Source: a virus
Lineage: Duplodnaviria > Heunggongvirae > Uroviricota > Caudoviricetes
Length of the DNA: 15,065 nucleotides
Strand: one strand, 5' to 3'
Virus record (IMG/VR): IMGVR_UViG_648276665_000002
Location: 1-15,065 of that record
This document shows, one piece after another, positions 3,720 to 14,538 of the stretch (positions are counted from its first letter, which is position 1; each line of letters begins with the position of its first letter). The translations under genes were made by a program, and so were the position numbers. A model generated the notes under the pieces. That model worked only from the letters and a program-made list of their open reading frames with translations, did no database searches and was not told where the DNA came from.

Positions 3720-4104
3720 TGCTGCCTCCGTGACTCTGCCTACATTCGCCCAGCTCCGTACACTCCAGCAGCAGAAAGCGCCGCGCCCCGTTCAGATCGC
3801 GCTGACGTTTCACCCGGTACACACTGTCATCACAGACCACCTCATAATCAGCAGTGATCCCCCGGCGGTAGCGAATGGTGATGTAATGGGTGATGGCGTC
3901 TCCGGTCTGCGCGGTTTCCTGCCAGGTGGTGGCACTGGTCTGGATAACCTTCGCCCATGCCCGGAACGCAACCGGGTATTGAGGCTCCACGCCAAAGTTA
4001 TCCGCGGGCATATCCACCCGCTGGCGGATCAGGACGCGTTTATTCAGTTCGCCGGGGTCCGGCAGAATGTAGGTTGCGCTGGTCTGCGCCTGACGAATTT
4101 TCAT
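3694..4104 (-). CDS. Head-tail adaptor / head closure protein
   Basis: 136 aa; ATG at 4104..4102 overlaps the connector TGA (ATGA coupling); position between connector and gp10 genes. Confidence 0.6.
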   Translation of the reverse strand: MKIRQAQTSATYILPDPGELNKRVLIRQRVDMPADNFGVEPQYPVAFRAWAKVIQTSATTWQETAQTGDAITHYITIRYRRGITADYEVVCDDSVYRVKRQRDLNGARRFLLLECTELGECRQSHGGSNGDSLFSR

Positions 4105-4424
4105 AGTGGTATAAGGCGATAAGGAACAACCAACCAGTTAAAACTCATTGGCAACTCCATTTTCTCAACGTCTGTAACCGTTGAGCGGTTTTCGTAGAAA
4201 TGGCTGACAAGTAGCAGAAGCGCCAGCTTCACATCATCAGATATCACAAGCCCATCAGGATCATCCGCAGGCCTGTCATCTGCGGTTGCATACAACTTAC
4301 GGTTAAGGAAGTTTTCCGTACGACTCTGAGCGGCCTTACCAAGCAGTTCAAGCAACTCATCTTCATCAGAGAAATCATCATCCAGACGGAGCTGAAGCTT
4401 AATCTCTTCCATTTTTAACAGCAT
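4101..4424 (-). CDS. Head-tail connector protein (gp6-like)
   Basis: 107 aa; AGGAGG 4 nt upstream of ATG 4424..4422; acidic N-terminus (EEIKLQLRLDDDFSDEDELLELL) typical of the connector family; first gene after the major capsid gene. Confidence 0.65.
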   Translation of the reverse strand: MLLKMEEIKLQLRLDDDFSDEDELLELLGKAAQSRTENFLNRKLYATADDRPADDPDGLVISDDVKLALLLLVSHFYENRSTVTDVEKMELPMSFNWLVVPYRLIPL

Positions 4425-4452
4425 AAAACCTCCTGTGCCCGCCAGAACGCGG

Positions 4453-4480
4453 GCCCAAAAAAAACCGCATTACGCGGCGT
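4453..4480 (-). terminator. Candidate partial terminator/attenuator downstream of the major capsid gene
   Basis: On the minus strand a short hairpin (ccgc-gtaat-gcgg) is followed by T8 (plus-strand A8 at 4457-4464), then a second GC-rich hairpin (plus 4445..4456) just before the connector RBS. The stem is short, so low confidence. Confidence 0.25.
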
Positions 4481-4503
4481 GCTGTATTACGTAAAAAGAC
4501 TAA

Positions 4504-5733
4504 TCAACCACCAACGCTACCTTTCCCCACCAGCGCTTTAATGGCAGAGGTGTCTTCCAGGATACAGTCAAAACGATGGAAGGCCAGAAAACCGGTCTGA
4601 TCATATTCCGCGTAACGCTCAACCAGACGTTTAAGAATCATGTATCGCACACGACGGATAATGAAGCGATCAAAGTCACCACAGAACATGAATTTTTTAC
4701 CCGCCCCGATATCATCAATTTCCTGATCAATGACATACGGTACATTCAACACTGAAGCAGGTGCCACACCAACAATATCCGGCAACCATAAAGGGCGTCC
4801 CTGACCGTCTTCCATCTCACTGATCAGTTTCAGCGTATTATCGTTAAATGCCAGGCGGAATTTCGGTCCGCGACGATATGCAGGATCAATGCTGTGTTTC
4901 AGAGCCAGAATTTCCTGCCACTTCACCGCATTTGCCGCGGCAGTCTGTGTTGTGCCGGTCACTGATGCTGCCAGCCCTTTGGGTTGTTTAGGCGTACCAG
5001 CCCCCGTCCCCTGAATCAGATAACGGGCTTCACCACGACCAATACGTTCAGCAATGCGACGGGCAAGATAAGCTTCCATATCGATCGCGCTGTCCTGCAG
5101 CAACTCATTAGACACACGAATGATTTTCGATGTCATTTTGAGCGCCCCAAGGCTTCCCATACCGAAATCGGTGTCTTCTTCACCGGCTTCTTCATTTTCG
5201 CCCAGCAGAACACCAACTTCGGAAGTACCATCAGCTGTTGCCCACTCCATAGTGCGACCGTCAGAAGTGGTCAGAATCTGCGCCACACTGGCGATGCCAC
5301 CGTAGGATTTCATTTTCTCAACAACTTTCGCCAGGAATGTTTCTGGTACGGTATATCCGCCCTTTTCATCCTGAGCTACACCCTGGGCACGAAGTTCACG
5401 CAACGCCTTTCGTTCTTCTGATGTCAGCTCACTGGCACCGTGACGCATCCACTTATCAAAAACCTGAGCTCGTTTCTCATCCTGTTGTGGATTGTTTTCC
5501 GGATCAAGATTCTGACGCTGCTCTTCCTCATTGCTTTCAATGTACGCCTGATCTTGACGACGCAGTTCTTCTTCGCGTGCAATTCGTTCATCAAGCGCTT
5601 CCAGTTCGGATTTTGCTTTGTTCCACTCAGTGCGCTGCTCTTCCGTCCATGCGTTATCACCAATTTTTTCATTCAGGGCGCGCATGTCAGTTGCGATAGT
5701 ATTACGTTTCTGTTTCAGTTCATGCAGTTTCAT
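4504..5733 (-). CDS. Major capsid protein, HK97 fold, with N-terminal scaffolding (delta) domain
   Basis: 409 aa; AAGGAAA RBS; N-terminal ~120 aa highly charged coiled-coil-like region (KQKRNTIATDMRALNEKIG...EEELRRQDQAYIESNEEEQRQ), then a capsid body; directly downstream of the prohead protease. Confidence 0.9.
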   Translation of the reverse strand: MKLHELKQKRNTIATDMRALNEKIGDNAWTEEQRTEWNKAKSELEALDERIAREEELRRQDQAYIESNEEEQRQNLDPENNPQQDEKRAQVFDKWMRHGASELTSEERKALRELRAQGVAQDEKGGYTVPETFLAKVVEKMKSYGGIASVAQILTTSDGRTMEWATADGTSEVGVLLGENEEAGEEDTDFGMGSLGALKMTSKIIRVSNELLQDSAIDMEAYLARRIAERIGRGEARYLIQGTGAGTPKQPKGLAASVTGTTQTAAANAVKWQEILALKHSIDPAYRRGPKFRLAFNDNTLKLISEMEDGQGRPLWLPDIVGVAPASVLNVPYVIDQEIDDIGAGKKFMFCGDFDRFIIRRVRYMILKRLVERYAEYDQTGFLAFHRFDCILEDTSAIKALVGKGSVGG

Positions 5734-7565: not shown

Positions 7566-7716
7566 GCGTCCCCCTTCTGGCCATAGCCAGTGCGCCCACC
7601 AGCAGTAAACCGCCGGACAGCATCAGAGCCGGAGCCATACCAAACTGCAGGTAAAACCCGCACGTAAGCAGGCCAAAACCAGCCAGCCCGATAACATCAG
7701 CAATTAGTGATTTCAT
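7555..7716 (-). CDS. Small putative two-helix membrane protein between terminase and portal
   Basis: ATG at 7716..7714 overlaps the terL TGA (ATGA). 53 aa, [53 protein letters not shown], two hydrophobic stretches; overlaps the portal start by 11 nt. Found by manual translation. Confidence 0.4.
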
Positions 7717-9446
7717 AGAATTAAGAGAGCATCGTCCGGATCAAGAGATGAGAGGAAATCGTCGGGTTCTTTGAGCATTGCCCGACCGATCGCCATAATC
7801 AGTGCAACCGCACCATCGATTTTGTTTTCCGCCTGCTCCTTGACAGGCTTCACCACATCATCGTTACCCGGAATGGTTTTGCCGACCACGTTGCCGATAC
7901 ACCAGGTCATGATGGGATTGCCATCATGATGAAAGCGCCCCGATTCAATTGCCGCTTCCAGCTCTTTCATCGGGTCGGACATGTTGGTGTAGTTCTGAAT
8001 GATAGTGATGGGGTTCAGGTCTTCATCAGCAAGGTCATGTGACAACCCGGTCGCCCCGAAGGGGTCGATGGGTGACTCACTGACCGGGCTGATTTTGTTC
8101 GCCGCTTTGGCCTCCTCGAGGATGTAGCGATAATCCACCTCCGCACCATCGGTAACGGTCAGAACGCCCATTTCCACCCATTTCTGAAAGCGTTCGGCTG
8201 TCCGGCGATCTTCATTTTTCTCGACGCTGTACACCGTGTCATACGGTACCCAGAAGCGCGGAGCCACACTGTAGTAATGCGTTTTACCGTCAATCTCGCG
8301 GGTATAAAGTCGCGCCATGCTGTTCATATCCAGCTTACGCGCCAGGTCAAAGGCCAGAATGCACGGCTGCCCCTCGAACTGCTCAAGGGTCAGTGATTTA
8401 TCCTCGCAGCTCTGCCAGCTCACCAGGTTGAAATACGCCGAACGCGCCGACACCCAGATATTGAGGTGTTTTGTTTTAAAGACGTTTGCCAGACGGGCGT
8501 TATTTTTCGCACGCTGCTGCTGACTTAACAAAAATTCGCGATAAACCGACACGCCAATATTTGGATTGGCTTTTTCCAGCACCTGCGGGTCGGTCCAGTC
8601 ATCGCCTTCGTCAACGGTATAGATGATCCCGAACAGTTCATCGTTGGGTACCGAACCGTTGAGCATCTCGATAACTTCCCGCCGCTTGTCGTAGCACGGC
8701 CCCTCAATGTTGTACCCGGCGGTGGTGATGGCCCACATCAGTGGCTGACGTCGCGCGCCCATCCCGGTAAGCATCGTGGTATAAAGCGCATCGGTGGCGT
8801 GCTCGTGATATTCATCCACCACGGCACAGTGGGGTGATGAACCATCACCGGGGTTACCGATCAGCGGTTCAAACCGCGCGCCATCCTCCGGACGGTTCAT
8901 GTTTGAGGCGTTAACCTCAATCCCGAACGCTTCCGTCAGCATGGGTGTGCGTTTACACATCAGTCGCGCCGGGCGAAAGACTTCCCACGCCTGTTTCTCT
9001 GTCGTGGCACCGGAATACACTTCCGCGCCAAACTCGTTATCACAGGCAAAACAATACAGGGCAACACCGGCAGAGATTGCCGATTTGCCGTTCTTACGGG
9101 GGATTTCGGTATACACCTCCCTGAAGCGGCGCAGCCGGGAGCCTTTATTGACCCAGCCAAACGCACAGCAGATCACAAAGAGCTGCCACGGTTCCAGCGT
9201 GATGGGCATCCTCTTGAATGCCCACTCCCCCTTGGTGTGTGGCAACAGCTGAATAAATTTCGCGGCCCGTTCAGCCAGGTCCTTGTCGAAGCGGTAACGA
9301 AACGACTTACTTTTTTCCGCCATCAGGTCATCAAGATGGCGCTGGCAGGCCTGAATCACAAACTGGCAGGCCACAATCTTTCCGCGCACGACATCACGGG
9401 CATACTGATTGGCAGCATTTACGTTGGGGTAAGATTTCCGGCTCAT
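7713..9446 (-). CDS. Terminase large subunit
   Basis: 577 aa; ATG at 9446..9444 overlaps the terS TGA (ATGA); N-terminal ATPase-like and C-terminal nuclease-like regions; followed by the portal gene. Confidence 0.95.
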
Positions 9447-10062: not shown

Positions 10063-10413
10063 TCACTTTAACCGTTCACGGGCCGTCTTCGCCTTATGAC
10101 ACGGCCAGCACAGACTCTGCAGATTACTGTCGGCATCAGTGCCGCCATGCGCTTTAGGGATGATGTGGTCAACAGTTTTCGCCTCACGCACCACACCAGC
10201 GCGCAGACATAACTGACACAGGCCTTTGTCACGCTTCAGGACACGCGCGCGGATACTGTCCCACTTCGAACCGTAGCCGCGCTGATGACGGGATTGTCCT
10301 GGTTTGTATTGCTTCCAGCCTTCGCTTTTGTGGCTTTCGCAGTAGCCTGACGGGTCTGTGGTTGTAGAGCGGCAGCCGCGAACACGGCAGGCTTTTGGGG
10401 TTCGAGGGGGCAT
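10063..10413 (-). CDS. HNH endonuclease (terminase-associated)
   Basis: 116 aa; N-terminal CxxC pair (CRVRGC...C), then HNH motif DHIIPKAHGGTDADSNLQSLCWPCH; directly upstream of terS as in HK97-like packaging modules. Confidence 0.85.
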   Translation of the reverse strand: MPPRTPKACRVRGCRSTTTDPSGYCESHKSEGWKQYKPGQSRHQRGYGSKWDSIRARVLKRDKGLCQLCLRAGVVREAKTVDHIIPKAHGGTDADSNLQSLCWPCHKAKTARERLK

Positions 10414-11170
10414 TATTAATGTCCTAAATAGTTTCCTCTCTAAAAACTAATTTGTGTTAGGGAAATCATTAAATGAAGTGAACCTTTTAGTACCCACTGT
10501 AAAATTCACTTCATTAATATTTAACCAAATACAATGAATGTTCCAAAAGATGCTAATGATATATTTATCAGAGAATCCATACGAGCCTTAATTTCTGGCG
10601 TATTCTCGACCTCAGTACGCCATTGATTGACTGCCTCAATCATATCTCGACAAAACACATCTATTTGCAACTGAAGTTTGCCATTTAAGTGATTTAAATG
10701 CACTTGGCAATTTGTCCTAGGTGGTGGTGTAAAATTAAACTGCATCATTCTTTTCCTGTTCTCTGGATCCTGTCCAGCATGTAAACAAGAACAACGATAC
10801 AGCCAAAAATCATCCGCATAAAATCGACACTGTTCATGTGTACCGGATGTATATTTATTTTCAAGATAACGAGAAACCCAATCTTTATACCATTTCCCTG
10901 TTTCACCCTTACCTATTTTGGGACGTTCAACGCTCCTGCAAATATCAGGCATAGCAAGAGCCATAAACAATGCCGCTAACCAATTCTCACTTTCAATTGA
11001 AGATTCAATTGATTTTATAAACCTTTCCATAACTCACCTTTATATTATTTGATGATTATATTTATAGCACAGTTACAATCATTTTCCGGAAAATATTTAT
11101 TCATTTTGATATCCTATTTTTAGAATATCCTTTTTATCTCTATTGCATTGCGCTAATGCAGATAACAAAC
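10414..11170. other. AT-rich cargo island A between the lysis cassette and HNH/terminase
   Basis: Base composition drops visibly between about 10414 and 11170 relative to flanking phage genes; contains one well-formed ORF with its own RBS. Confidence 0.6.
10521..11030 (-). CDS. Hypothetical protein of unknown function (cargo of island A)
   Basis: 169 aa; AGGTGA 5 nt upstream of ATG 11030..11028; TAA stop at 10523..10521; AT-rich codon usage unlike neighbouring genes; hydrophobic C-terminal segment (LINISLASFGTFIVFG); no family recognised. Confidence 0.6.
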   Translation of the reverse strand: MERFIKSIESSIESENWLAALFMALAMPDICRSVERPKIGKGETGKWYKDWVSRYLENKYTSGTHEQCRFYADDFWLYRCSCLHAGQDPENRKRMMQFNFTPPPRTNCQVHLNHLNGKLQLQIDVFCRDMIEAVNQWRTEVENTPEIKARMDSLINISLASFGTFIVFG

Positions 11171-11414
11171 TCACATTCAGTTCCAGGCTAGCACCATATG
11201 TCAGTGGACTAGGTACAACTGGAATCGGTGTTTCAGAAGTCAGGCTGGCTGGCAGTGGTACCGCCGGAGTGTTCACGTAAACTGTCCGCGTACTTCCGCA
11301 ACCGGTCAGCAGCGGCAGCAGGCACAGGACGTGAAGCACAATCATCATCCGCAACAGCCACTTTGATATCTTCCTGGGTTCTCTGTGACTCCAGTGCAAT
11401 CTGCTGTTTTGCAT
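11097..11414 (-). CDS. o-spanin (Rz1-like outer-membrane lipoprotein), embedded in/overlapping Rz
   Basis: Out-of-frame ORF overlapping the 3' half of Rz; contains a signal peptide plus lipobox MMIVLHVLCLLPLLTGC and a Pro-rich region. Start is uncertain (ATG 11414 with AGAGG RBS, or ATG 11348/11345). The 3' end lies in AT-rich island DNA. Confidence 0.55.
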   Translation of the reverse strand: MQNSRLHWSHREPRKISKWLLRMMIVLHVLCLLPLLTGCGSTRTVYVNTPAVPLPASLTSETPIPVVPSPLTYGASLELNVSLLSALAQCNRDKKDILKIGYQNE

Positions 11415-12599: not shown

Positions 12600-12697
12600 G
12601 CGAAGTAACCACTCTTAACAGATTACAAGAATTTTTGCGTACGCGTTAATTTTTTTGTATTTTTCTCATTACACAACATATAAACCCTATGTAAAAA
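12600..12697. promoter_or_regulatory. AT-rich divergent promoter region: candidate late promoter (minus strand) and candidate promoter of the island B operon (plus strand)
   Basis: Plus strand: TTACAA...TTAATT and TTGCGT-17nt-TATTTT hexamer candidates upstream of ATG 12698. Minus strand: TTAACG-16nt-TGTAAT about 40 nt upstream of the tR'-like hairpin. All by eye. Confidence 0.25.
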
Positions 12698-13981
12698 ATG
12701 ACAGCAGAAATAGCCGTATTTAACAAGACCGCAGTAGCTTTAGCCGCAGATTCAGCTGTAACGATTTCTGGAGGCGGCAAACATAAAATCTATAATGGCG
12801 CTGAAAAGCTTTTCGCTCTAACTAAACATCATCCTGTAGGTTTGATGGTATATGGAACTGGTGATCTCTGCACAGCTCCATGGGAGCTTATCATTAAGGC
12901 TTATAGAAAGGATTTAGGCTCTAAATGTTTTGACTCTTTGGAGGAATATGCTGAGGATTTCTTCAATTATCTACAGTCGGCTAAATCAATCATCACACCA
13001 GGTATGCGTGAGGCTCATCTTTATCACTTCCTGAGCGAGATTGTATTCAGCATGCTTGTTGATGCTTTTTCTGAAGGTCTCGAACCAACATATTTCGTTA
13101 ACTTCGATAAGAATCAATTTGTTACAGACCTCACGAATTATTGCAACGATCTCCTTACAAAATTATCTGATATTAATTACTTTGATGGTTTTACTCCGGA
13201 TGATGAACAAGCAGCCCAAACCTATGCTTCATCAGTTACCCAACGCATCATTGCTCAAAAGTTTAGTGACTTTGATTCAATATCCATAACCCCACAGTTG
13301 ACAAAAGCAGTTAGTGATGTATTGGCAGCTATGATATGCAAGCAAAGTGATATTGGTTCCGTCTCTGGGATTGTGATTGCAGGTTATGGCGATAAAGACT
13401 ATTACCCTAAAGTATTATCATATGAAGTTTGTGGCTTCTTTAATGATAAAATCAGGAAAACCACAGATGCTGACAAGTGCTGCATCACTCCTAATTGCGG
13501 AGTGACTCCCTTTGCGCAAGAGGATGAAGTTTCTGCTTTCATGCAAGGAGCTAGTTCACATCTTATTCAAAATCTTCATGCTGAGTATCAACGTTCTATC
13601 GGCGATTTACTTGATGGTATTGATTCAGTAATCACAGATTTGGTGCCCACTTCAGATATCGAAGGAGCCAAGGATGCTATAGTTGATGTAGTGCGCAGGA
13701 CTGTTTCCGATTGCAAGGGGCGTATTGATAGCTTTGTCCGAGAAAACTATGTTGACAAAGTCGTAAATATGATCGAGTTTTTACCCAAGCAAGATTTAGC
13801 TTATATGGCTGAATCATTAGTAAATTTAACCGCTTTCAAGCGCAAGGTCTCCGATGATACTGAAACAGTGGGAGGCCCCATAGATGTTGCAATCATTTCT
13901 AAAGCTGATGGTTTTATCTGGGTTAAACGTAAGCACTATTTTGCAAAAGAACTGAACCATCACTACTTTTCACGGTCATAG
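12698..13981 (+). CDS. 427-aa protein with a putative N-terminal-nucleophile (HslV/proteasome-beta-like) hydrolase domain and an unassigned C-terminal region
   Basis: ATG 12698, TAG at 13979-13981. Begins M-T (MTAEIAVFNKTAVALAADSAVTISGGGKHKIYNGAEKLFAL..VGLMVYGTGDL); compare HslV [24 protein letters not shown]...KKVRRL...AGFAGGTAD. Thr directly after Met, Asp at the Asp17-equivalent position, KLF as in proteasome GKKLF, a GxG-D motif, and CGVTPFAQ (267-274) versus HslV GSGGPYAQ. No clear SD upstream. Confidence 0.6.
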   Translation: MTAEIAVFNKTAVALAADSAVTISGGGKHKIYNGAEKLFALTKHHPVGLMVYGTGDLCTAPWELIIKAYRKDLGSKCFDSLEEYAEDFFNYLQSAKSIITPGMREAHLYHFLSEIVFSMLVDAFSEGLEPTYFVNFDKNQFVTDLTNYCNDLLTKLSDINYFDGFTPDDEQAAQTYASSVTQRIIAQKFSDFDSISITPQLTKAVSDVLAAMICKQSDIGSVSGIVIAGYGDKDYYPKVLSYEVCGFFNDKIRKTTDADKCCITPNCGVTPFAQEDEVSAFMQGASSHLIQNLHAEYQRSIGDLLDGIDSVITDLVPTSDIEGAKDAIVDVVRRTVSDCKGRIDSFVRENYVDKVVNMIEFLPKQDLAYMAESLVNLTAFKRKVSDDTETVGGPIDVAIISKADGFIWVKRKHYFAKELNHHYFSRS

Positions 13982-14004
13982 CAACAAATAGACAAGGGGA
14001 ACAC

Positions 14005-14154
14005 ATGTCACTTAAGCAAGCCTATGAAAGAACTCAACCCAAAAGCATCAATGATTTCTTTCAGTTGAGTACTTCTGGAAAGAGTCGACGTACTGTAACA
14101 AGCCAATCTAACTTCTTTACTAAATTGAACAAAACATTACCTGCACAATCCTAA
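14005..14154 (+). CDS. Small hydrophilic basic protein (49 aa), second gene of the island B operon
   Basis: AAGGGGA 5 nt upstream of ATG 14005; MSLKQAYERTQPKSINDFFQLSTSGKSRRTVTSQSNFFTKLNKTLPAQS; TAA at 14152-14154 immediately followed by the terminator hairpin. Confidence 0.4.
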   Translation: MSLKQAYERTQPKSINDFFQLSTSGKSRRTVTSQSNFFTKLNKTLPAQS

Positions 14155-14193
14155 AAAGTTAAAAGCCACTACGGTGGCTTTTAACTTTTATTT
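14153..14193. terminator. Bidirectional intrinsic terminator shared by the island B operon (+) and the Q gene (-)
   Basis: Perfect 12-bp stem gttaaaagccac / gtggcttttaac (14158-14169 / 14174-14185) with tacg loop, flanked by A5 on the 5' side and ttttattt on the 3' side, so a U-tract follows the hairpin on either strand. Confidence 0.65.
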
Positions 14194-14538
14194 ACATGCA
14201 ATAACGCTCGTAATACCCTCTACAAAACCAATTGCAGTTTGCAATTCCTTTCTAATCGTGCCATCTGAACACCTTCTCTTTTTGGCAATAGTGCGTAATG
14301 AGATACCAATAACAAAGTGGGCTATGATGAGCTCATATTCCTCTGGTTTATACCTTCTCAACCGAGCCACACAACTGTCTATCATAATGCCTTCGTCATC
14401 ATCACACTGAATCCGTGACTTTTTGCCATGAGGTAAAAGCCCCTTGAAGCCTGCTGCTATCGGCTGCCAGTCCACGCCACTGTTATCTGCTGCAGCCCAT
14501 GCTCCCCAGCGGTCCAATACTTCATACATATCACGCAT
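14188..14538 (-). CDS. Late-gene antiterminator Q (QuuD-like)
   Basis: ORF-track start at 14553 is TTG; likely start ATG 14538..14536 with GGAGAAAG upstream. MRDMYEVLDRWGAWAAADNSGVDWQPIAAGFKGLLPHGKKSRIQCDDDEGIMIDSCVARL parallels E. coli DLP12 QuuD (VLERWGAWAA...IAAGFKGL...SRPQCCDDD) as recalled from memory. Confidence 0.8.
   Translation of the reverse strand: MRDMYEVLDRWGAWAAADNSGVDWQPIAAGFKGLLPHGKKSRIQCDDDEGIMIDSCVARLRRYKPEEYELIIAHFVIGISLRTIAKKRRCSDGTIRKELQTAIGFVEGITSVIACK

What the first reader, a model, noticed from the sequence alone, without database searches (positions are those of the whole stretch)
10414..11170. Second AT-rich island with an unrecognised 169-aa protein between the spanins and HNH/terminase
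A single well-formed gene (10521..11030, minus strand) with a strong AGGTGA RBS and AT-rich codon usage sits between Rz/Rz1 and the HNH gene. The protein has several Cys residues (CRFYADDFWLYRCSCLHAG) and a hydrophobic C-terminal tail (ISLASFGTFIVFG) but no motif I can assign. It is co-oriented with late genes, so it could be expressed during lytic growth as well as from its own promoter.
Basis: partly seen in the sequence, partly recalled or inferred. Interest (0 to 1): 0.6.

Follow-up and report, generated by a model that had tools for sequence, protein, structure and literature searches.

The report
Prophage cargo gene: solo HEPN-like RNase
The 169-aa "unrecognised" protein is a real, self-contained cargo gene of an SfV-like E. 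coli prophage, and it most likely encodes a small HEPN-fold RNA-cutting enzyme of a large unnamed family, making it a good but untested candidate for a single-gene anti-phage defence.

Summary
The ORF (10521-11030, minus strand), its AGGTGA ribosome-binding site and the AT-rich island are all real. The island (10414-11096) is a cargo insertion between the Rz1/LysC stop codon and the HNH start codon of an SfV-like prophage. That slot is empty or holds unrelated genes in related prophages. This gene is in 19 of 5,426 complete E. coli genomes.

The cassette looks like a classic moron. An extended -10 promoter (TGcTATAAA) is invariant across relatives of 40-99% protein identity, and relatives carry an intrinsic terminator.

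There is no conserved partner gene. Relatives lie in accessory positions of temperate phages. One subgroup lies between hsdS and hsdR of type I restriction-modification operons, as PrrC does.

Best reading: a solo HEPN RNase acting in abortive infection or exclusion, analogous to HepS. RNase activity and a defence role are inferred. The tail-anchor idea is not supported.

The parts
10414..11096 (-). Cargo island (683 bp, GC 0.343) inserted between the lysC stop codon (11097-11099) and the HNH start codon (10411-10413)
   Evidence: Alignment with an empty-site prophage (L003) and an alternative-cargo prophage (L002): homology resumes exactly at the HNH ATG and is lost near the lysC 3' end. Composition.
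10521..11030 (-). CDS, 169 aa, predicted solo HEPN-fold protein (family without a name)
10779..10796 (-). Codons for R79-C-S-C-L-H84, the Rx4H motif and predicted catalytic centre
   Evidence: R79 and H84 are the only invariant residues in 172 and in 133 diverse sequences. They lie at the end of model helix 72-83. Codons checked.
10944..10946 (-). Codon for D29 (PDIC motif), the conserved acidic residue in helix 2
   Evidence: D in 171 of 172 sequences. Helix 17-35 in the model. The HEPN literature places an acidic residue in helix 2 near the motif.
10698..10700 (-). Codon for H111, a second conserved histidine in the beta-sheet insert between helix 3 and helix 4
   Evidence: 97% conserved. 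Strands 98-101, 112-115 and 118-122 in the model. Absent from the R-M-embedded subgroup.
10524..10574 (-). Codons for the C-terminal tail, residues 153-169 (SLINISLASFGTFIVFG): low-confidence, variable, beta-prone, not a membrane helix
11034..11039 (-). Shine-Dalgarno AGGTGA, 3 nt before the ATG
   Evidence: Conserved as GGTGA in enteric relatives.
11061..11069 (-). Extended -10 promoter-like element TGcTATAAA, about 30 nt upstream of the ATG
   Evidence: TG.TATAA is invariant in 8 loci whose proteins are 45-77% identical, while the flanks diverge. It is present in all enteric-phage relatives of 40-99% identity. The simple sigma-70 scan, which requires a -35 hexamer, did not list it.
11081..11094 (.). 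Perfect 14-bp palindrome ATTTTCCGGAAAAT over the expected -35 position; function unknown (possible operator)
   Evidence: Relatives carry a different short inverted repeat (AGGCA..TGCCT) at the same place.
10472..10515 (-). AT-rich hairpin 6 nt after the stop codon, followed by UUUAAUGAUUU; a weak terminator-like element
   Evidence: Inverted repeat I2. RNA fold -19.7 kcal/mol, z = -2.6. Relatives have a canonical GC hairpin plus T-run at the equivalent place. The terminator scan did not list it.
11097..11414 (-). Upstream flank: Rz1-like o-spanin LysC
   Evidence: PF23793, 6e-16.
10063..10413 (-). Downstream flank: HNH endonuclease of the packaging module
   Evidence: PF01844, 2e-16.

Best explanation
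The island is a 'moron': a promoter-gene-terminator cassette dropped between the last lysis gene (Rz1/LysC) and the first packaging gene (HNH) of an SfV-like prophage. Its product is a small stand-alone HEPN-fold protein. Its R79-x4-H84 motif, helped by D29 in helix 2 and probably by N16 and H111, would form a metal-independent endoribonuclease site, most likely across a homodimer as in other HEPN enzymes. The proposed working model has three steps. First, the gene is transcribed from its own extended -10 promoter in the lysogen, and also by read-through of the late operon. Second, the protein sits as an inactive oligomer. Third, a component of a superinfecting phage activates it, and it then cuts tRNA, mRNA or rRNA, stops translation and aborts the infection, protecting the lysogen population. 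This is the logic shown experimentally for HepS and Tha. Shown here: the gene, its cargo status, the conserved promoter-like and terminator elements, the HEPN-like fold prediction, invariance of the motif, the lack of a partner gene, and the phage and R-M contexts. Inferred: RNase activity, oligomerisation, expression in lysogeny, the defence role, and any trigger.
Confidence: 0.55

Rival explanations
1. A phage-serving RNase or counter-defence factor. The HEPN-like enzyme would be made late in the prophage's own lytic cycle to degrade host or competitor RNA, or to destroy cyclic-oligonucleotide immune signals, benefiting the phage instead of protecting the lysogen.
For: The gene has the same orientation as, and sits inside, the late operon between the lysis and packaging genes. 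The same slot is used in other enteric phages. Some HEPN sites degrade cyclic oligoadenylate (abstract of PMC6599890).
Against: The gene is dispensable: it is absent from SfV and most related prophages. It carries its own conserved promoter-like element and, in relatives, its own terminator, which is typical of genes expressed in lysogeny. In Arthrobacter phages it lies next to the integrase and opposite to the tail genes. Relatives also occur inside cellular R-M operons.
Confidence: 0.13
2. The toxin of an addiction or toxin-antitoxin module. The RNase would be held in check by an unrecognised antitoxin, such as a small RNA, a tiny ORF, or a protein encoded elsewhere in the prophage, and would mainly stabilise the cassette or the prophage.
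Against: There is no conserved neighbouring ORF in 66 genomic and 46 viral locus clusters. The island has no ORF of 30 aa or more outside the gene and no Rfam match. The flanking intergenic stretches are only 66 and 107 nt.
Confidence: 0.1
3. A non-catalytic HEPN-like helical protein, acting as an adaptor, nucleotide-binding or regulatory protein, for example one that modulates a host or phage factor without cutting RNA.
Against: Non-catalytic HEPN branches typically lose the Rx4-6H motif. Here R and H are the only invariant residues across about 170 sequences sharing 21% mean column identity, which is the signature of a catalytic site.
Confidence: 0.1
4. A tail-anchored membrane protein or lysis accessory factor, or a Cys-rich metal-binding protein.
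For: It lies next to the spanin genes. It has a hydrophobic C-terminal 13-mer and six cysteines.
Against: The best 19-residue hydropathy mean is 1.39, and the tail is too short, low-confidence and variable, with charged residues in close homologues. Only C31, C80 and C127 are conserved. They lie on the buried faces of helices and are each replaced singly by A, V or N in different sequences, which is unlike a metal site. The gene is absent from most phages that share the same lysis cassette.
Confidence: 0.02

Closest known systems
HepS (HEPN Solo defence element) of Salmonella prophage Gifsy-1 (Nature 2026, PMC13043305)
   Same: A single-domain HEPN protein with an Rx4H motif, encoded on a lambdoid-type prophage in an accessory-gene slot. 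It has no partner gene, and its homologues are scattered from Bacillaceae to Enterobacteriaceae. This is the closest functional model.
PrrC / RloC anticodon nucleases (HEPN RNases embedded in type I R-M loci)
   Same: A distant subgroup of this family sits between hsdS and hsdR with abutting reading frames and keeps the Rx4H motif (RNxxLH in two of five members, RCxxLH in three). This is the classical prr locus layout (established knowledge, and for the PrrC HEPN).
   Different: PrrC and RloC are large proteins with an N-terminal ABC-type ATPase. These proteins are about 170-200 aa with a single domain. The window's own gene is not in an R-M operon.
AbiV (Lactococcus HEPN abortive-infection RNase; PDB 9bj5-9bj7)
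   Different: The Foldseek E-value is about 1 (not significant) and there is no Pfam HEPN_AbiV hit. The PDB entry calls AbiV a two-component system. The AbiV family often lacks the motif His.
Tha (tail-activated HEPN anti-phage system of S. aureus prophages, PMC11087260)
   Same: A prophage 'moron' encoding a HEPN RNase (R265NSIMH270) that aborts infection when triggered by a phage structural protein.
   Different: Tha is 301 aa with an extra N-terminal region, and it is paired with the inhibitor Ith. No such partner exists here.
HEPN-MNT type II toxins (e.g. SO_3166, PDB 5yep, 7ae2)
   Different: They are defined by an adjacent MNT antitoxin gene, which is absent here and in relatives.
Lambdoid 'morons' (Juhala et al. 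2000; cited)
   Same: A promoter-gene-terminator unit of deviant base composition, present or absent between conserved phage genes at a module boundary.
   Different: This is a genetic architecture, not a protein family. In the window the terminator is only a weak AT-rich hairpin.

Membership tests
HEPN superfamily | [quoted passage not shown] | tested here: met
HEPN superfamily | Conserved Rx4-6H motif | tested here: met
   R79-CSCL-H84. R and H are invariant in 172 of 172 and 133 of 133 sequences and are the only invariant columns.
HEPN superfamily | [quoted passage not shown] | tested here: met
   The model helix ends at residue 83 and H84 is the first loop residue. The criterion is taken from PMC3710099. 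This rests on a predicted structure.
HEPN superfamily | Polar residue (N, D or H) immediately after the Arg (typical, not universal) | tested here: not met
   Cys80 here. In the family it is C in 95% and N in 5%; the R-M-embedded subgroup has RN in two of five members and RC in three.
HEPN superfamily | Conserved acidic residue in helix 2 near the motif | tested here: met
   D29 is present in 171 of 172 sequences and lies within helix 17-35. Its spatial proximity to the motif was not measured because no coordinates were returned.
HEPN superfamily | Sequence-profile match to a curated HEPN family | tested here: not met
   No Pfam, NCBIfam or PADLOC hit for the protein, for 133 relatives or for the R-M subgroup. 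The PDB profile search was empty.
HEPN superfamily | Metal-independent endoribonuclease activity, with a dimer forming a composite active site | not testable with these tools
   Needs biochemistry or multimer modelling.
HepS-type solo HEPN prophage defence | Stand-alone HEPN gene without a conserved partner, frequently on prophages | tested here: met
   compare.
HepS-type solo HEPN prophage defence | Homology to HepS (more than 200 aa, R100/H105, terminal sensor strands) | tested here: inconclusive
HepS-type solo HEPN prophage defence | Protects against phages by abortive infection; activated by a phage protein; anticodon nuclease | not testable with these tools
   Needs experiments.
PrrC/RloC-type R-M-linked anticodon nuclease | Gene embedded in a type I R-M operon | tested here: not met
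   Not the case for the window gene. It is met only for distant relatives L071, L075, L076 and L079, and partly L078.
PrrC/RloC-type R-M-linked anticodon nuclease | N-terminal ABC/NTPase regulatory domain | tested here: not met
   The protein is a single domain of 169 aa.
HEPN-MNT type II toxin-antitoxin | Adjacent minimal nucleotidyltransferase antitoxin gene | tested here: not met
   The island has no other ORF and there is no recurrent neighbour.
Phage moron | Own promoter | tested here: inconclusive
   An invariant TGnTATAAA lies upstream of the start codon (about 30 nt in the window) in all enteric relatives. This is sequence conservation only; there is no transcript evidence, and the consensus scan was negative.
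Phage moron | Own terminator | tested here: inconclusive
   Relatives have a canonical GC hairpin plus T-run. The window has only an AT-rich hairpin, -19.7 kcal/mol with z -2.6.
Phage moron | Presence/absence polymorphism between otherwise collinear phages, and deviant base composition | tested here: met
Known anti-phage defence hotspot | Alternative occupants of the slot are recognised defence systems | tested here: not met
   Eight alternative cargo proteins gave no PADLOC 2.0 hit.

The most novel reading that the evidence does not exclude
This protein represents a very large, unnamed and unannotated HEPN family (about 2,850 clusters at 50% identity, found across bacterial phyla including CPR, in one archaeon and in many temperate phages). 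It would work as a complete one-gene abortive-infection system, spreading as a promoter-gene-terminator cassette, with the sensor built into the small protein itself (the family-specific beta-insert with His111, or the variable beta-prone C-terminal tail). A sister branch would have been recruited into type I R-M operons as a PrrC-like back-up without the ATPase domain.
Probability: 0.35. Interest if true: 0.65.

Novelty: new member of a known kind. Interest (0 to 1): 0.5.

Why it matters
If the reading is right, the gene adds a widespread, currently invisible family to the set of single-protein HEPN defences. No Pfam, NCBIfam or PADLOC model detects it, so defence-annotation pipelines miss it. 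It offers a compact 169-aa system in E. coli for asking how a solo RNase is kept silent and how a phage switches it on. It also flags the Rz1-to-HNH junction of SfV-like prophages as a cargo slot with at least seven alternative contents, none annotated, which could be screened for new functions. The R-M-embedded relatives would extend the PrrC idea, an RNase back-up to restriction, to a minimal protein without an ATPase.

Tried and rejected
- Sequence-family searches found nothing. Pfam, NCBIfam and PADLOC had no hit for the protein. Pfam had no recurrent hit for 133 relatives, for longer or fused members except one TPR fusion, or for the R-M subgroup. PHROGs gives only 'unknown function'.
- PDB sequence searches with the single protein and with the profile returned noise only.
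- Foldseek against the PDB gave nothing significant. The afdb50 library was unavailable. BFVD returned only two uncharacterised phage relatives.
- A search for a conserved partner or antitoxin gene found none, apart from the R-M subgroup. The recurrent tRNA-synthetase neighbours are too few to interpret.
- The zinc-site idea for the Cys and His residues was rejected because C31, C80 and C127 are lost independently of one another.
- The transmembrane or tail-anchor idea was rejected.
- Rfam gave no match in 10300-11300. The island has no other ORF of 30 aa or more outside the gene.
- The simple promoter and terminator scans were negative. The promoter call rests on cross-locus conservation instead.
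- The 5'-UTR stem that would mask the Shine-Dalgarno sequence is recurrent, but it has no compensatory changes and only -3.9 kcal/mol for the consensus. It is left as an observation.
- I tried to get the HepS sequence for a direct comparison. LT2 Gifsy-1 has no matching ORF and the paper's supplements are not held.
- The literature search for the protein accession and the PHROG id found nothing.
- PADLOC on the alternative cargos of the slot gave no hits.

Full report

Yes. The minus-strand ORF 10521-11030 (ATG to TAA, 169 aa) exists. It is preceded by AGGTGA at 11039-11034, 3 nt before the ATG. The island is AT-rich: 10414-11096 has GC 0.343 against 0.509 for the window. The ORF has GC3 0.28, against 0.59-0.68 for HNH, TerS and TerL.

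Upstream are Rz1/LysC (PF23793, 6e-16) and Rz (DUF2570), and downstream is HNH (PF01844, 2e-16). The ORF is a real gene: PHROG 18591 matches at 1e-74, and homologues at 33-77% identity exist in other genera.

Two corrections are needed. The "hydrophobic tail" is a 13-residue stretch that varies even among close homologues and has low model confidence. The best 19-residue hydropathy window is 1.39, which is not a membrane anchor.

**2. Where it sits**

The window is an SfV-like prophage of E. coli, with an HK97-type head and P27-family small terminase. Alignment with an empty-site prophage and with an alternative-cargo prophage shows that homology stops near the lysC 3' end and resumes exactly at the HNH start codon. 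So 10414-11096 is an insertion at the boundary between the lysis and packaging modules.

In phage SfV and many E. coli prophages the slot is empty, with 27 bp between lysC and HNH in L003. Elsewhere it holds:
- an unrelated 168-aa protein;
- a two-gene cassette on the opposite strand (111 + 189 aa or 111 + 219 aa);
- a 124-aa or a 64-aa hypothetical protein;
- a GrlR-family regulator;
- about 420 bp without an annotated gene.

None of these alternatives matches a PADLOC 2.0 model. The slot is therefore a cargo hotspot, but it is not shown to be a defence hotspot.

The gene is in 19 of 5,426 complete E. coli genomes. It is always single-copy and at least 98.8% identical, whereas identity over the whole 1.7-kb interval, flanks included, falls to 95.6%. 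This suggests recent exchange of the cassette.

**3. The cassette is a self-contained transcription unit**

I aligned the upstream region from eight loci whose proteins are only 45-77% identical to this one. The columns TG-n-TATAA are invariant and everything else drifts. The element, TGcTATAAA, is an extended -10 promoter. It lies at 11069-11061 in the window, about 30 nt upstream of the ATG, and is present in every enteric-phage relative of 40-99% identity. Firmicute-phage relatives carry TGnTAT(T/A)AT at a similar distance.

The generic sigma-70 scan requires a -35 hexamer and missed it. Immediately after the stop codon, relatives have a textbook GC hairpin plus T-run. The window has an AT-rich hairpin instead (10472-10515, -19.7 kcal/mol, z -2.6), which does not meet the terminator rule.

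Promoter, ribosome-binding site, gene, terminator, deviant composition and presence/absence polymorphism together define a classic phage moron. Expression itself was not tested.

**4. What the protein is**

No Pfam, NCBIfam or PADLOC model matches it, and all database names for it are "hypothetical protein". Yet a profile search of 1.84 billion cluster representatives finds 2,854 clusters at E<=1e-3 and 1,733 at E<=1e-10. Most are 160-200 aa. None of 133 diverse members hits any Pfam family.

Across 172 sequences (and again across 133) only two residues are invariant, R79 and H84. Next in conservation are P28 and D29 (99%), W137 (98%), H111 and F126 (97%), and C31, C80, G86 and W51 (95%).

The AlphaFold2 model is confident (pLDDT 87, pTM 0.83). 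Its elements are helices 2-13 and 17-35, a helical insert 44-61, helix 72-83, a short helix plus a three-stranded sheet (89-122), and helix 123-141.

The published description of HEPN domains (PMC3710099) gives these features:
- an up-down four-helix bundle with an insert between helices 2 and 3;
- a conserved acidic residue in helix 2.

The model matches each one. H84 is the first residue after helix 72-83, and D29 is in helix 17-35.

Three departures remain. The residue after the Arg is Cys (Asn in 5% of the family and in two of the five R-M-embedded relatives). A beta-sheet insert carrying the conserved His111 lies between helices 3 and 4. No sequence profile links the family to any curated HEPN family, and Foldseek is not significant, although AbiV tops its list.

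The three conserved cysteines lie on the buried helix faces. In different sequences each is replaced singly by A, V or N, so a metal site is unlikely.

**5. Who else has it, and with what neighbours**

The family is patchy and very broad. The genome scan found it in Proteobacteria, Firmicutes, Actinobacteria, Bacteroidota, Cyanobacteria, Chlorobi, Planctomycetes, Verrucomicrobia, Acidobacteria, several CPR lineages and a Woesearchaeote. It gave 94 matches in IMG/VR viral contigs.

Cultured phages that carry it include Escherichia phage ECP1, where the ORF is unannotated, SPbeta-like phages, 35 Arthrobacter phages, and Gordonia and Acinetobacter phages. All the annotated copies are called hypothetical.

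In enteric phages of three different architectures it holds the same post-lysis, pre-terminase slot. These are the SfV-like prophages, lambda-like phages with Nu1/GpA terminase, and P22/Mu-F-like phages. In Arthrobacter phage Nandita it lies next to the tyrosine integrase and is oriented opposite to the tail genes. In a Bacillus SPbeta-like prophage it follows a recombinase.

Viral neighbours within two genes are integrases, S24 repressors, KilA-N, NinX, Q, endolysins, holin, portal and terminase. These are accessory positions of temperate phages.

No partner gene is conserved, with one informative exception. In gut Clostridia MAGs a divergent branch lies between hsdS and hsdR of a type I restriction-modification operon, with abutting or overlapping frames. 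The branch has the same N-terminal 90 residues and keeps the Rx4H motif (RNxxLH or RCxxLH), but has a different C-terminal half. This is the layout of the PrrC anticodon nuclease.

In Melainabacteria the gene lies beside an AAA_15/21 ATPase with a small partner and a DEAD/ResIII helicase. Many other chromosomal copies sit among housekeeping genes, so the context evidence for a defence role is suggestive but not uniform.

**6. Most likely mechanism**

I read the gene as a solo HEPN-type endoribonuclease carried as a moron. In the working model it is expressed from its own promoter in the lysogen and also by late read-through. It is held inactive as an oligomer, and a product of a superinfecting phage switches it on. 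It then cleaves tRNA, mRNA or rRNA and aborts the infection.

This follows what has been shown for the prophage-encoded solo HEPN protein HepS. HepS is constitutively made, forms an inactive tetramer, is opened by the tail-tip protein J and acts as an anticodon nuclease (PMC13043305). It also follows Tha (PMC11087260).

By analogy with HepS, whose disordered termini form a beta-sheet with the trigger, two elements are candidate sensors: the variable, beta-prone, low-confidence C-terminal tail, or the family-specific beta insert. This last point is speculation.

Shown here: gene, cargo status, conserved regulatory elements, predicted fold, motif invariance, absence of a partner, and contexts. 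Inferred: RNase activity, oligomerisation, expression in lysogeny, the defence role and the trigger. I give about 0.8 to "HEPN-fold with a catalytic Rx4H site" and about 0.55 to the whole statement including the defence role.

**7. Rivals**

- A lytic-cycle or counter-defence RNase (0.13). The late-operon position favours it. Dispensability, the gene's own promoter and terminator, the integrase-proximal position in actinophages and the R-M-embedded relatives argue against it.
- A toxin with a hidden antitoxin (0.10). There is no conserved neighbour, no extra ORF and no Rfam hit. The recurrent 5'-UTR stem that would mask the ribosome-binding site has no compensatory support.
- A non-catalytic HEPN-like binder (0.10). 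It is disfavoured because such branches usually lose the motif, whereas here the motif is the only invariant feature.
- A membrane, lysis-accessory or metal-binding protein (0.02). It is not supported.

**8. Comparison with what is known, and novelty**

The protein works like HepS, AbiV or Tha, and its relatives resemble PrrC in context. I cannot file it in any named family. It meets the structural and motif criteria of the HEPN superfamily but fails every sequence-profile test. It differs from HepS in size, motif position and architecture. It lacks the ATPase of PrrC, the MNT partner of HEPN toxins and the Ith partner of Tha.

I therefore rate it a new member of a known kind: a new family within the HEPN superfamily, with the known logic of a prophage-borne solo RNase. 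Its value is practical. It is a large family invisible to current annotation and defence-finding tools, with a compact E. coli representative and clear mutational targets (R79, H84, D29, H111).

**9. Limits**

Noticed in passing
window 12600-14400 (ORF 12698-13981, + strand): This is the other AT-rich island (GC about 0.40). It holds a 427-aa ORF on the opposite strand, between the holin and the upstream late-regulatory region. It matches PHROG 5990 ('unknown function', 1e-236) but has no Pfam, NCBIfam, PADLOC or PDB-sequence hit. The same slot holds an ATP-binding protein, an SDH-family Clp-fold serine protease or a DNA methyltransferase in related prophages, so it is a second cargo hotspot.
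   Followed up: partly
window 11081-11094: A perfect 14-bp palindrome, ATTTTCCGGAAAAT, lies just after the lysC stop codon, over the expected -35 position of the cassette's extended -10 promoter. Relatives have a different short inverted repeat (AGGCA...TGCCT) at the same place. It could be an operator for an unknown regulator.
   Followed up: no
window 11031-11060 and the equivalent 5' UTRs in L011, L015, L016, L087, L095, L097, L101, L102: There is a recurrent stem in which an upstream UCACC (UCAUC in the window) pairs with the Shine-Dalgarno GGUGA. This could mask the ribosome-binding site. The only changes seen are C-to-U wobbles, there are no compensatory changes, and the consensus energy is only -3.9 kcal/mol.
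   Followed up: partly
L071, L075, L076, L078, L079 (gut Clostridia MAGs), about 3.7-8.6 kb in each locus: A divergent branch of the family is embedded in type I R-M operons in the order hsdM-hsdS-X-hsdR, with overlapping frames. It keeps the Rx4H motif (RNxxLH in L075 and L079, RCxxLH in the others) but lacks the His111 region.
   Followed up: partly
L045 and L057 (Dehalococcoidia), L053 (Acidobacteriota), L041: In these loci family members sit directly downstream of aminoacyl-tRNA synthetase genes, some overlapping them: a class II Lys/Asp/Asn-type synthetase in L045 and L057, and TyrRS in L053. There are too few cases to interpret, but it is curious for a suspected tRNA- or RNA-targeting enzyme.
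   Followed up: no
L162 665-1670 and L167 665-1672 (E. coli CDF6 and 2023CK-01509), the same Rz1-HNH slot: An alternative cargo is a two-gene cassette on the opposite strand: a conserved 111-aa protein plus a variable 189- or 219-aa protein. Both are annotated as hypothetical and have no PADLOC hit. It is another unexplored moron at this hotspot. Other occupants include a GrlR-family regulator (L166).
   Followed up: partly
L143, L146-L151 (IMG/VR contigs), ORF about 3998-5030: A subgroup of about 341-344 aa carries only the N-terminal 86 residues of the family, fused to a C-terminal region of about 250 aa with no Pfam match.
   Followed up: no
L160 3501-3944 (Escherichia phage ECP1, KY979108.1 8614-9057): A 45%-identical homologue lies in an unannotated gap of a cultured lambdoid phage, between the lysis genes and the terminase. 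The neighbouring 'glycosyltransferase' (ECP1_021) occupies the position expected for the small terminase subunit and may be misannotated.
   Followed up: no
L001 3707-5439 (E. coli 22AR0750): In this otherwise near-identical prophage the large terminase gene is annotated as frameshifted, so some carriers of the cassette may be defective prophages. In the window TerL (7713-9446) is intact.
   Followed up: no
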